A stretch of 32,000 bases of DNA from Ruminococcus albus 7 = DSM 20455 (GTDB lineage Bacteria > Bacillota > Clostridia > Oscillospirales > Ruminococcaceae), in the NCBI RefSeq assembly GCF_000179635.2, contig NC_014833.1, positions 2,430,001 through 2,462,000 of the forward strand, in the 5' to 3' direction. The translations under genes and the position numbers were made by a program. A model generated the notes under the pieces. It ran no database searches, had not been told where the DNA came from, and was given only the letters and a program-made list of their open reading frames with translations. Shown in pieces: positions 2,614 to 2,691 of this stretch. Within the stretch, counting starts at the first letter, position 1. Every line of letters starts with the position of its first letter.

Positions 2614-2691
2614 GTCAGCAACAGCATTTATAAGCGGTCTAACGCAGGTTCGAATCCTGCCCTGCGCGTAAGCGTATGGTAAAATGCTGAC
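2614..2691 (+). ncRNA. Structured RNA module 5: tRNA-like element (YrlA-style Y-RNA candidate), 78 nt
   Basis: The 7-bp acceptor-like stem is GTCAGCA (2614-2620) / TGCTGAC (2685-2691). ACAGCA sits at 2621-2626. A D-loop-like AGCGGTCTAA lies at 2633-2642. The T-arm is canonical: GCAGG (2644-2648), TTCGAAT (2649-2655), CCTGC (2656-2660). A GNRA hairpin follows: TGCGC-GTAA-GCGTA (2663-2676). There is no anticodon arm. The T-loop is canonical only when read on the + strand. Confidence 0.6.

What the first reader, a model, noticed from the sequence alone, without database searches (positions are those of the whole stretch)
2614..2691. tRNA-like element without an anticodon arm, abutting the RBS of the vWA gene
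The T-arm GCAGG/TTCGAAT/CCTGC (2644-2660) matches the tRNA consensus, with a UUCGAAU loop and a G53-C61-type closing pair. Directly 5' lies AGCGGTCTAA (2633-2642), which resembles a class II tRNA D-loop including the GG that normally docks on the T-loop. The element is closed by a 7-bp acceptor-like helix. It has no anticodon stem. Instead a GNRA hairpin (2663-2676) sits between the T-arm and the 3' strand. This is the architecture reported for the tRNA-like domain of bacterial YrlA Y RNAs. The 3' arm ends at 2691 and the AAAGGAG RBS of the downstream gene starts at 2695. Folding or processing of the element could therefore influence translation of the partner protein. That last point is inference.
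Basis: partly seen in the sequence, partly recalled or inferred. Interest (0 to 1): 0.75.

Follow-up and report, generated by a model that had tools for sequence, protein, structure and literature searches.

The report
tRNA-elbow mimic in Y-RNA-like array
The element is real: it is the last of five small structured RNAs encoded between an RNA ligase gene and a gene for a Ro60-shaped protein, and it belongs to a widespread family of tRNA-mimicking "Y-like" RNAs in gut bacteria and phages for which I found no published description.

Summary
Window 2612-2693 folds as a 9-bp closing helix, a GG loop, a canonical T-arm (2644-2660) and a GNRA hairpin. There is no anticodon arm. ARAGORN and Rfam (tRNA, YrlA) do not call it.

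It is unit 5 of a tandem array, M1-M5 (2303-2693). All five units share a "handle": a 7-9 bp stem, 0-2 nt, then an invariant ACAGCA.

The same handle array lies beside orthologues of the downstream gene in 76 of 81 genome loci. It also occurs in IMG/VR phage contigs, E. coli phage SUSP1 and mycobacteriophage Wyatt2.

The downstream DUF2828/DUF7788 protein is predicted to have the Ro60 fold (TROVE ring plus vWA). RtcB is a neighbour in 47 of 81 loci.

Sister units carry full tRNA-like cloverleaves, YrlA-type permuted T/D arms, or anticodon-stem-loop mimics. The permuted units hit Rfam YrlA over its full length at 29-36 bits, similar to a published phage YrlA (37 bits).

Best reading: a reduced tRNA-elbow mimic on a protein-docking handle. 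This makes it a new variant of bacterial Y RNAs, with ACAGCA in place of the Ro60 motif GNCGAA.

The translational-control idea is not supported. The RBS is unpaired, and its abutment to the unit is specific to the closest clade. Expression, protein binding and function were not tested.

The parts
2612..2693 (+). Unit M5: the tRNA-elbow-mimic unit of the array. This is the finding, extended by 2 nt on each side.
   Evidence: Covariance model R1 scores it 80.5 bits, but it is one of the training sequences.
2612..2620 (+). 5' strand of the closing (handle) helix, AAGTCAGCA. It pairs with 2685-2693.
   Evidence: helix 1: 93.5% of cells paired, and 6 of 9 pairs have changes on both sides.
2621..2626 (+). 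ACAGCA handle motif. Inferred to be the docking site for the DUF2828 protein.
   Evidence: Invariant in the 21 aligned units. Occurs at 3.85 per kb upstream of DUF2828 genes against 0.47 per kb in controls. Its spacing from the stem is fixed. Strand bias is 305 to 20.
2633..2642 (+). D-loop-like single strand, AGCGGTCTAA, with an invariant GG at 2636-2637.
   Evidence: The GG is invariant. The sequence matches the D-loops of the full tRNA-like sister units. Docking of the GG on the T-loop is inferred from tRNA structure.
2644..2660 (+). T-arm: a 5-bp stem with a UUCGAAU loop.
   Evidence: In one search, helix 2 is 94.3% paired, 4 of 5 pairs covary, and the G53-C61-type closing pair is kept in 21 of 21 units.
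2661..2679 (+). Variable hairpin with a GUAA (GNRA) loop. It occupies the position of the YrlA acceptor-like stem-loop.
   Evidence: Present in most of the 21 homologues, with different stem sequences and mostly GNRA or UUCG loops. No hairpin is predicted in L018, L019, L024 and L059.
2685..2693 (+). 3' strand of the handle helix, TGCTGACTT. It is followed by a conserved G at 2694.
2303..2352 (+). Unit M1: handle AAGGCAC/GTGCCTT, ACAGCA at 2312-2317, short hairpin insert.
2374..2446 (+). Unit M2: handle TCGGCTC/GAGCCGA, ACAGCA at 2383-2388, structured insert of about 50 nt.
   Evidence: A same-frame counterpart is present in L003 and L024.
2453..2502 (+). Unit M3: handle AAGACGC/GCGTCTT, ACAGCA at 2462-2467.
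   Evidence: It is also hit by model R1 at 23.8 bits.
2523..2598 (+). Unit M4: handle TCGGCAT/GTGCCGA (one G-U pair), ACAGCA at 2532-2537, structured insert.
   Evidence: A same-frame counterpart is present in L003, L005 and L010.
2710..4182 (+). Partner protein (490 aa) matching DUF2828 and DUF7788. Predicted to have the Ro60 fold: a helical-repeat ring plus a vWA domain with a conserved MIDAS-type D-x-S-x-S.
   Evidence: Pfam hits. AlphaFold2 model with pLDDT 90.4. The five best Foldseek hits are all Ro60/TROVE structures, E 8e-8 to 4e-6, aligned over the full length. D294, S296, S298, T364 and D396 are invariant.
560..1804 (+). RtcB RNA 3'-phosphate ligase, on the same strand upstream of the array.
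   Evidence: Pfam RtcB, E = 4e-106. An RtcB gene lies within the fetched flanks of the DUF2828 gene in 47 of 81 loci.
2695..2701 (+). AAAGGAG ribosome-binding site of the DUF2828 gene, one base after the M5 helix.
   Evidence: It is unpaired in the minimum-free-energy folds. The CTTG|AAAGGAG junction is conserved only in the closest clade.

Best explanation
Window 2612-2693 encodes the fifth and last unit of a five-unit array of Y-RNA-like small RNAs (2303-2693). The array lies between rtcB and a gene for a Ro60-fold protein (DUF2828/DUF7788).

Each unit has two parts:
- A conserved handle: a 7-9 bp helix joining the unit's ends, followed on the 5' side by ACAGCA. I infer that this is where the Ro60-like ring docks. 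Ro60 binds canonical Y RNAs at a basal helix plus GNCGAA, which is the equivalent position.
- A variable effector insert.

In unit 5 the insert is a stripped-down tRNA elbow. It has a canonical T-arm and a D-loop-like GG strand that can dock on the T-loop, plus a variable GNRA hairpin. It has no D stem and no anticodon arm.

The likely working model (inferred) is as follows. The array is co-transcribed with the operon and cut into units. The units load onto the DUF2828 protein. The tRNA-like insert then presents a tRNA surface to a factor that recognises tRNA, such as RtcB or another repair or processing enzyme, or a tRNA-targeting nuclease. The resulting particle would act in tRNA/RNA repair or surveillance, as proposed for Rsr-YrlA-RtcB in Salmonella.

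Shown here: the structure, its conservation and covariation, the shared handle, its genomic linkage to DUF2828 and RtcB, the predicted Ro60 fold, and the sequence/structure similarity of sister units to YrlA.

Inferred: transcription and processing, protein binding at ACAGCA, GG/T-loop docking, and the biological role.
For: Structure and covariation of unit 5.

Handle shared by all five window units.

ACAGCA in 81 loci:
- It is about 8 times more frequent in the 1 kb upstream of DUF2828 genes than in controls.
- A flanking stem scoring at least 7 is found at 84% of these sites against 15% of control sites.
- The frame is fixed, and strand bias is 305 to 20.

Model R1: 147 hits, all on the gene strand and nearly all in the non-coding DNA upstream of the DUF2828 gene.

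Sister units fall into three groups:
- Full cloverleaves in which the handle serves as the acceptor stem. ARAGORN and the Rfam tRNA model call some of these.
- Permuted units with T-arm, hairpin, D-arm.
- Minimal GG-plus-T-arm units like the one in the window.

Permuted units hit YrlA RF02553 over its full length at 28.9-36.4 bits. The published ET08 YrlA scores 37.4 bits.

The partner protein is predicted to have the Ro60 fold. RtcB is linked in 47 of 81 loci, in different gene orders.

The same handle occurs next to DUF2828 genes that are only 34-44% identical: in IMG/VR phage contigs, E. coli phage SUSP1 and mycobacteriophage Wyatt2.

True TROVE Ro60 (ET08 gp220) is accompanied by GNCGAA-type handles instead.

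The Y RNA, Ro60 and RtcB background comes from PMC4201824 and bioRxiv 10.1101/312249.
Against: There are no expression data. It is not shown that the array is transcribed, processed or stable.

Protein binding to the handle is inferred only from co-occurrence and analogy.

The Rfam YrlA and tRNA models do not hit the window element.

The DUF2828 profile finds no Ro60 chain in a sequence search of the PDB. The relationship rests on a predicted structure with TM-scores of 0.4-0.6.

Some orthologous arrays have lost the T-arm from the last unit (L004, L014), and only 41 of 76 loci with units have a T-arm unit that my pattern detects. The elbow is therefore dispensable or replaceable.

The energy z-score of the element alone is modest (-2.56).
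Confidence: 0.7

Rival explanations
1. The units are decoys or sensors for tRNA-targeting nucleases. This is an alternative function, not an alternative identity. The handle would display fragments of tRNA (elbow, anticodon stem-loop or whole tRNA) as bait for anticodon nucleases or other tRNA toxins. Cleaved bait would be resealed by RtcB or would signal damage. Phage versions would act as anti-defence.
For: Anticodon-stem-loop-like hairpins occur in 114 of 527 candidate units, against 6.8 +/- 2.5 in shuffled inserts. The commonest anticodons are UUU (Lys), GAA (Phe), GUU (Asn), UGA (Ser), CAU (Met) and GUC (Asp). From my own knowledge, several of these are known nuclease targets: PrrC cuts tRNA-Lys, colicin E5 cuts tRNAs with QUN anticodons, and VapC cuts tRNA-fMet.

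DUF2828 genes occur in 711 phage records, often beside tRNA gene clusters.

Bas63 gp130 is Ro60-like, lies upstream of tRNA genes and counters the Ppl defence (PMC11482910).

RtcB linkage.
Against: Unit 5 of the window has no anticodon loop, so it could only bait factors that read the tRNA elbow.

The window's units M1-M4 show no canonical anticodon-stem-loop.

No toxin gene was identified in the locus.

That Bas63 gp130 is a DUF2828 orthologue is inferred, not tested. Ppl is proposed to degrade DNA, not tRNA.
Confidence: 0.25
2. The element is a cis-acting leader that controls translation or stability of the DUF2828 mRNA. This is the reader's inference: folding or processing of unit 5 next to the RBS would tune expression of the partner protein.
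For: The helix ends one base before AAAGGAG. The CTTG|AAAGGAG junction, 13-16 nt from the ATG, is conserved in the window and seven close loci. In 56 of 76 loci the last unit ends 13-61 nt before the start codon. Cleavage at the 3' end of the unit would leave an mRNA that starts at the RBS.
Against: The RBS and start codon are unpaired in the predicted folds.

No alternative pairing with the RBS and no terminator was found.

In L001, L008 and L012 the orthologous unit lies about 125 nt from the ATG, and in L010 about 60 nt.

In other loci the array lies upstream of rtcB (L034, L068, L074) or downstream of the gene (SUSP1, Wyatt2).

Four more units with the same handle lie further upstream, where they cannot touch the RBS.
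Confidence: 0.1
3. The element is a decayed tRNA gene or tRNA fragment, for example a relic or a mobile-element attachment site, with no function of its own.
For: It contains a perfect T-arm. Full tRNA-like sister units exist and probably derive from tRNAs.
Against: The T-arm stem covaries, and the GG and ACAGCA are invariant in loci whose partner proteins are 52-89% identical to the window's.

The element is always on the gene strand and in the same frame within the handle.

No integrase gene or direct repeats were seen.

A relic would not keep pairing through compensatory changes.
Confidence: 0.03
4. The units are dispersed repeats of the REP or MITE type, or an unrecognised repeat array, unrelated to the neighbouring genes.
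For: The units are tandem, similar in size and have stem-loop character.
Against: In the 32-kb window, model R1 hits only inside the array.

Stem sequences differ between units, while only ACAGCA and the frame are kept.

Linkage to DUF2828 holds from Clostridia to coliphages and mycobacteriophages.
Confidence: 0.02

Closest known systems
YrlA (Rfam RF02553), the tRNA-like Y RNA of Salmonella, Mycobacterium and phages (Chen et al. 2014, PMC4201824; Wang et al. 2018, bioRxiv 10.1101/312249)
   Same: - A small RNA closed by a helix between its 5' and 3' ends.
- A protein-binding motif on the 5' side of that helix.
- An internal domain that mimics tRNA, with a canonical T-arm.
- Encoded beside, and on the same strand as, a Ro60-fold protein gene, with rtcB in the same operon (as in Salmonella rsr-yrlBA-rtcBA).
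- More than one Y-like RNA per locus.
- Sister units in homologous arrays have the same order (T-arm, stem-loop, D-arm) and align over the full length of the YrlA model.
   Different: - The motif is ACAGCA, not GNCGAAN0-1G.
- The partner matches Pfam DUF2828/DUF7788, not TROVE/vWA_Ro60.
- The window unit lacks the D stem, and its GG loop lies 5' of the T-arm.
- The YrlA model does not detect it.
- Arrays have up to 7 units.
- Many units carry anticodon-stem-loop mimics or whole cloverleaves rather than the T/D core.
Deinococcus radiodurans Yrn1 Y RNA
   Same: Its tRNA-like features follow tRNA order: D-loop-like sequence without a clear D arm, then the T-arm. Chen et al. describe this. The window unit has the same order.
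   Different: Yrn1 keeps an anticodon-arm-like stem-loop and the metazoan-type Ro-binding helix. It binds Rsr (a TROVE protein) and tethers PNPase. None of this has been shown here.
Thermus phage phiLo phiRo60 with Yrl1 and Yrl2 (PMC12135203; PDB 9KOP)
   Same: A phage-encoded Ro60-fold protein with two Y-like RNAs encoded just upstream. 9KOP is among the best structural matches to the window protein.
   Different: The phiLo RNAs were identified through the CGAA motif and a stem-bulge-stem shape. No ACAGCA handle is described for them, and the passages I read describe no tRNA-like insert.
Transfer RNA
   Same: T-arm sequence and geometry, including the G53-C61-type pair and the UUCRANY loop. 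A GG that could play the role of G18-G19. A terminal helix in the topological position of the acceptor stem.
   Different: No D stem, no anticodon arm and no 3' NCCA end. There is a 6-nt ACAGCA insertion after the 5' strand and an extra hairpin between the T-arm and the 3' strand. ARAGORN and the Rfam tRNA model do not call it.

Membership tests
YrlA (RF02553; Chen et al. 2014) | Reaches the Rfam gathering score (69 bits) for the YrlA covariance model. | tested here: not met
   No YrlA hit in window 1800-3000 even at E <= 10. Sister permuted units score 28.9-36.4 bits. The published ET08 YrlA also reaches only 37.4 bits, so the threshold is strict.
YrlA (RF02553; Chen et al. 2014) | A GNCGAAN0-1G motif near the 5' end (the presumed Rsr/Ro60 binding site). 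| tested here: not met
   The window unit has AAGTCAGCA-ACAGCA at this position. ACAGCA is invariant in the family. ET08 shows GGCCGAGAG and GGCCGAAGG here.
YrlA (RF02553; Chen et al. 2014) | A conserved T stem-loop resembling the tRNA T-arm. | tested here: met
   2644-2660, GCAGG-UUCGAAU-CCUGC. It is conserved and covaries.
YrlA (RF02553; Chen et al. 2014) | A conserved D stem-loop placed 3' of an acceptor-like stem-loop (order T, AS, D). | tested here: not met
   After the hairpin at 2661-2679 only UAAAA precedes the 3' strand. The D-like GG loop is unpaired and lies 5' of the T-arm.
YrlA (RF02553; Chen et al. 2014) | Encoded within about 4 kb of, and on the same strand as, a Ro60 (TROVE-domain) orthologue. 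| tested here: inconclusive
   The unit is on the same strand, 16 nt upstream of the gene. The protein matches Pfam DUF2828/DUF7788, not TROVE. A profile search of PDB sequences finds no Ro60. The predicted structure, however, matches Ro60 best.
YrlA (RF02553; Chen et al. 2014) | Carries tRNA modifications (pseudouridine 55, dihydrouridine) or is a substrate of RNase P or the CCA-adding enzyme. | not testable with these tools
   Needs modification mapping (CMC or alkali treatment with primer extension, or mass spectrometry) and enzyme assays.
Y RNA in the broad sense (RNA partner of a Ro60-fold protein) | Terminal helix with a conserved protein-binding motif, plus a variable effector module. 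| tested here: met
   The handle is conserved in 261 units from 76 loci, with variable inserts.
Y RNA in the broad sense (RNA partner of a Ro60-fold protein) | Physically bound by the Ro60-fold protein and expressed as a discrete small RNA. | not testable with these tools
   Needs RIP or CLIP, EMSA, and Northern blots or small-RNA sequencing.
tRNA | Cloverleaf with D arm, anticodon arm, T arm and a 7-bp acceptor stem with a free 3' end. | tested here: not met
   ARAGORN finds no tRNA in the window. No Rfam tRNA hit at E <= 10. No anticodon arm or D stem appears in the fold.
Cis-regulatory leader (riboswitch, T-box or RBS-sequestering type) | Alternative structure that sequesters the RBS or forms a terminator, at a fixed position relative to the regulated gene. 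| tested here: not met
   The RBS is unpaired. No terminator-like site lies in the array. Position relative to the gene varies.

The most novel reading that the evidence does not exclude
The ACAGCA handle defines a large RNA family that appears to be undescribed. It would be the cognate partner of the DUF2828 branch of Ro60-fold proteins. The family is spread across gut Clostridia and many phage lineages: Felixounavirus and Suspvirus coliphages, cluster-L mycobacteriophages and IMG/VR contigs.

Its units would be modular displays of tRNA parts: the elbow (as in this window), anticodon stem-loops of particular tRNAs, permuted T/D cores, or whole cloverleaves. Together with RtcB they would work in conflicts over tRNA integrity, as host repair or surveillance systems and as phage counter-defence.
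Probability: 0.45. Interest if true: 0.88.

Novelty: new variant of a known kind. Interest (0 to 1): 0.78.

Why it matters
Bacterial Y RNAs are known only as partners of TROVE-type Ro60, and the job of their tRNA-like domain is still open.

If this reading is right, a second and very common family of Ro60-shaped proteins would gain its RNA partners. That family, DUF2828, appears in thousands of protein clusters and 711 cultured phage records and is labelled a domain of unknown function. A simple searchable signature (stem plus ACAGCA) would also become available.

The variety of inserts on one handle (elbow only, anticodon stem-loop only, whole tRNA) amounts to a natural dissection of which tRNA surface matters. 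That makes the open question testable.

It would also explain non-coding DNA and odd 'tRNA' calls next to these genes in phage genomes. It offers a lead for the reported anti-defence phenotype of a Ro60-like phage protein.

Tried and rejected
- ARAGORN and Rfam at gathering score on the window found nothing. Rfam at E <= 10 returned only noise around the element.
- A profile search of PDB sequences with the DUF2828 alignment found no Ro60. The link appeared only through the predicted structure.
- Literature searches for DUF2828 returned only unrelated plant and tardigrade papers. 'Rot TROVE' returned nothing. Searches combining YrlA, Ro60, RtcB and tRNA-like found no description of DUF2828-associated RNAs.
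- Burroughs & Aravind 2016 (NAR, on RNA repair systems) and Sim et al. 2020 (Annu Rev Microbiol) are not held. I could not check whether they mention such RNAs.
- The promoter and terminator scan gave nothing convincing inside the array.
- The 155-aa ORF between rtcB and the array (1820-2287) has no Pfam hit and is shared only with L003. I rejected it as a core component.
- I considered whether the 9-bp helix could instead pair through ACAGCAUUU/AAAUGCUG, an alternative register in the window. The homologues keep the outer register, so I did not pursue it.
- I did not build a general model of the handle, because the inserts vary from about 20 to 110 nt. I used pattern-based counts with matched controls instead.
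Full report
**1. The observation**

- T-arm: GCAGG/UUCGAAU/CCUGC at 2644-2660.
- AGCGGTCTAA at 2633-2642, with GG at 2636-2637.
- A GUAA-looped hairpin at 2663-2676, which extends to 2661-2679.
- A closing helix.

The helix is 9 bp (2612-2620 with 2685-2693), not 7. 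Only G2694 separates it from the AAAGGAG at 2695-2701, and the ATG is at 2710.

RNAfold returns exactly these helices (-30.2 kcal/mol, z = -2.56). ARAGORN finds no tRNA in the 32-kb window. Rfam finds nothing at gathering score and nothing tRNA- or YrlA-like at E <= 10 in 1800-3000.

**2. The surroundings**

The element lies in a 420-nt non-coding stretch.
- Upstream are RtcB (560-1804; Pfam E = 4e-106) and a 155-aa ORF with no Pfam match.
- Downstream is a 490-aa protein that matches DUF2828 and DUF7788.

Reading that stretch showed five tandem units. Each is closed by a 7-9 bp helix whose 5' strand is followed, after 0-2 nt, by ACAGCA:
- M1 2303-2352
- M2 2374-2446
- M3 2453-2502
- M4 2523-2598
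- M5 2612-2693, which is the finding

Five ACAGCA in 315 nt is improbable against the rest of the window (Poisson P about 6e-6).

**3. Related loci**

The protein has thousands of relatives; those that carry a source name among the closest 120 are from Ruminococcus or Oscillospiraceae. I fetched 80 genome loci whose proteins are 49-89% identical to the window's, plus two contigs that encode a 77%-identical R. flavefaciens protein.
- In the 1 kb upstream of the gene, ACAGCA occurs at 3.85 per kb against 0.47 per kb elsewhere.
- 84% of those sites have a flanking stem scoring at least 7. The same search gives 15% at control sites.
- Strand bias is 305 to 20.
- The frame is fixed. Positions -9 to -3 read A, A/C, G, G/A, C/U, R, C. 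Two free bases follow, then ACAGCA, then usually A. The 3' strand ends ...CUU and is followed by G.
- I counted 261 units in 76 of 81 loci, 1-7 per locus, with a median length of 75 nt.

**4. Homologues of unit 5**

Twenty-one units of the same minimal type come from 18 loci: handle, ACAGCA, a loop with GG, then the T-arm 5-6 nt later. They align well. ACAGCA, GG and most of the T-loop are invariant.

For the two helices, 93.8% of cells are paired and 10 of 14 pairs change on both sides. No shuffle out of 500 reaches these values, and sliding the partner columns drops pairing to 29-45%.

The hairpin after the T-arm is predicted in most of the 21 units, with unrelated stem sequences and mostly GNRA or UUCG loops. 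None is predicted in L018, L019, L024 and L059.

A covariance model built from this alignment gives 147 hits at E <= 0.1 in 724 kb searched on both strands. All are on the gene strand, and nearly all lie in the non-coding DNA upstream of the DUF2828 gene. In the window it hits only M5 and M3.

**5. What the other units carry**

Units with a T-arm fall into three classes.
- **Class A** is a whole cloverleaf in tRNA order. The handle acts as the acceptor stem, and ACAGCA plus 5-9 nt is inserted before the D arm. ARAGORN and the Rfam tRNA model call several of these as odd tRNAs 40-600 nt upstream of the gene.
- **Class B** has the order T-arm, short hairpin, D-arm. This is the permuted YrlA architecture of Chen et al. 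2014.
- **Class C** is the minimal form found in the window. Its loop (AAUUGGUGAAU, AAAUGGUGAUAA, AAGCGGUCUAA) resembles the D-loops of class A (AAGUUGGUUAAAG, AAGAUGGUGAAAG).

Among units without a T-arm, many inserts are 5-bp stems with 7-nt anticodon-like loops. I found 114 among 527 candidate units, against 6.8 +/- 2.5 in shuffled inserts. The commonest anticodons are UUU, GAA, GUU, UGA, CAU and GUC.

**6. Relation to YrlA**

Rfam does hold YrlA (RF02553).
- The class B units of L033 match it over the full length (1-114) at 34.6 and 31.8 bits. A third unit matches in part at 28.9 bits.
- In those alignments the YrlA basal helix (acggCga/ucGccgu) lines up with the handle (ACGGUGC/GCACCGU). 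ACAGCA falls where YrlA has its Rsr-binding GNCGAA region.
- A class B unit of mycobacteriophage Wyatt2 scores 36.4 bits.
- These scores are below the gathering score of 69. But the published YrlA of mycobacteriophage ET08 reaches only 37.4 bits.
- ET08's protein is a true TROVE + vWA_Ro60 protein, and its RNAs carry GGCCGAGAG and GGCCGAAGG handles rather than ACAGCA.

**7. The partner protein**

A sequence profile of the family finds no Ro60 among PDB chains. An AlphaFold2 model (pLDDT 90.4, pTM 0.90) finds Ro60-type structures as its five best matches over the full length. These are Xenopus Ro60 (1YVR, 1YVP), Deinococcus Rsr (2NVO), phage phiRo60 (9KOP) and human Ro60 (9NF8), with E from 8e-8 to 4e-6 and TM-scores of 0.4-0.6. 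Isolated vWA domains follow.

The alignment keeps D294, S296, S298, T364 and D396 invariant, which is a MIDAS-type pattern.

RtcB lies next to the gene in 47 of 81 loci. In the close relatives it is upstream. In the distant ones it is downstream and belongs to another RtcB subfamily. In three loci it is immediately upstream, with the ACAGCA sites lying ahead of rtcB.

**8. Phages**

The gene occurs in at least 584 IMG/VR stretches and 711 cultured phage records. The latter include Felixounavirus and Suspvirus coliphages, cluster-L mycobacteriophages (annotated 'Ro-like RNA binding protein'), and Listeria, Staphylococcus, Vibrio and Campylobacter phages.

Handle units with ACAGCA flank it in IMG/VR contigs. 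They also flank it in phage SUSP1, where they sit among the tRNA genes, and in Wyatt2. These proteins are only 34-44% identical to the window's.

A preprint reports that Bas63 gp130 resembles Ro60, lies upstream of tRNA genes and counters the Ppl defence. It speculates that some of those 'tRNAs' are Y RNAs (PMC11482910). The DUF2828 gene is 80-90% identical in 233 phage records, most of them Felixounavirus-type phages. So gp130 is probably an orthologue, but I did not test this.

**9. Mechanism**

Shown:
- A conserved, covarying RNA structure.
- A shared handle.
- Strict linkage and co-orientation with a gene for a predicted Ro60-fold protein, and frequent linkage with RtcB.
- Similarity of sister units to YrlA.

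Inferred:
- The array is transcribed with the operon. No convincing internal promoter or terminator was found.
- It is cut into units, and the handle docks on the DUF2828 ring as Y RNA stems dock on Ro60.
- The insert presents a tRNA surface. For M5 that surface is the elbow, formed by the T-loop and the GG strand.

Which factor reads the elbow is unknown. RtcB, RNase P, PNPase, modification enzymes and tRNA-targeting toxins are all candidates. The inserts that mimic anticodon loops make a decoy, sensor or repair role in tRNA-centred conflicts attractive, but that remains speculation.

**10. The translational idea**

- The RBS is unpaired in the predicted folds.
- The one-base abutment (CUUG|AAAGGAG) is kept only in the nearest clade. 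Elsewhere the last unit ends 20-60 nt or more than 100 nt before the ATG, or the array is placed elsewhere.
- Processing at the 3' end of the unit could still define the 5' end of the mRNA. That is untested.

**11. Novelty**

I found no description of RNAs associated with DUF2828 in Rfam 15 or in the held literature. Chen et al. restricted their search to genomes with annotated TROVE proteins. Two relevant papers could not be read, so prior mention cannot be excluded.

I file the element as a new variant of a known kind. It works like a bacterial Y RNA with a tRNA-like domain, but it fails several defining tests for YrlA membership: the motif, the D arm, the model score and the partner's Pfam family.

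Noticed in passing
window 2303-2598: Four more units (M1-M4) have the same stem-plus-ACAGCA handle. M2 and M4 use TCGGC.../...GCCGA handles and carry structured inserts of 50-55 nt. M4's insert recurs in L003, L005 and L010, and M2's in L003 and L024. The folds of these inserts are unexplained.
   Followed up: partly
window 1820-2287 (+): A 155-aa ORF sits between rtcB and the array. It has no Pfam match and is shared only with the R. albus AR67 locus L003 (82% identity). It is absent from the other 80 loci, so it looks like an accessory insertion.
   Followed up: partly
L001 3395-3444 (unit with ACAGCA at 3410); corresponding units in L005 and L009; L001, L004 and L006 Asn-type units; many IMG/VR loci (L085, L088, L090, L100, L101, L106, L132, L156): Many units without a T-arm carry 5-bp stems with 7-nt anticodon-like loops: CUGUCAC/CUGUCAA (GUC, Asp), CUGUUAA (GUU, Asn), CUUUUAA (UUU, Lys), CUGAAAA (GAA, Phe) and CUCAUAA (CAU, Met). 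They are about 17 times more frequent than in shuffled inserts.
   Followed up: partly
L163 (E. coli phage SUSP1) 5214-6039; L164 (mycobacteriophage Wyatt2) 4452-4740: Handle units with ACAGCA lie just downstream of the phage DUF2828 genes. In SUSP1 they are interleaved with annotated tRNA genes and include a permuted unit (T-arm, hairpin, D-arm). In Wyatt2 one tRNA-like unit uses AGCAGCA instead of ACAGCA.
   Followed up: partly
L165 (mycobacteriophage ET08) 28198-28275: The published ET08 YrlA scores only 37.4 bits against Rfam YrlA, whose gathering score is 69. Rfam's threshold therefore misses at least this phage YrlA.
   Followed up: no
L001 3170-3300 and 3660-3990: R. flavefaciens has extra repeats of about 50 nt (CCACGUUGNNGCUCGUAAACUCGCUCACUAUCAUCAAAAAUGCAG, two direct copies). 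Related sequences lie on either side of the last unit and push it about 125 nt from the start codon. The nature of these repeats is unknown.
   Followed up: no
L001 440-1702 (-): A gene with a weak WYL-domain match is divergently transcribed from rtcB in the R. flavefaciens locus. It is a candidate regulator of the operon. The equivalent region of the window lies at or beyond its left edge and was not examined.
   Followed up: no
L060 2850-6991; L079 805-5967: Two genome loci carry 9-15 tRNA genes around the DUF2828 gene, as phages and prophages do. This suggests that some 'genomic' copies are prophage-borne.
   Followed up: no
L004 3947-3985; L014 3924-3986: In these two loci the orthologous last unit keeps the AAGUCAG handle but has lost the T-arm. 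L004 also reads GCAGCA instead of ACAGCA. The elbow module is therefore not obligatory in every lineage.
   Followed up: no
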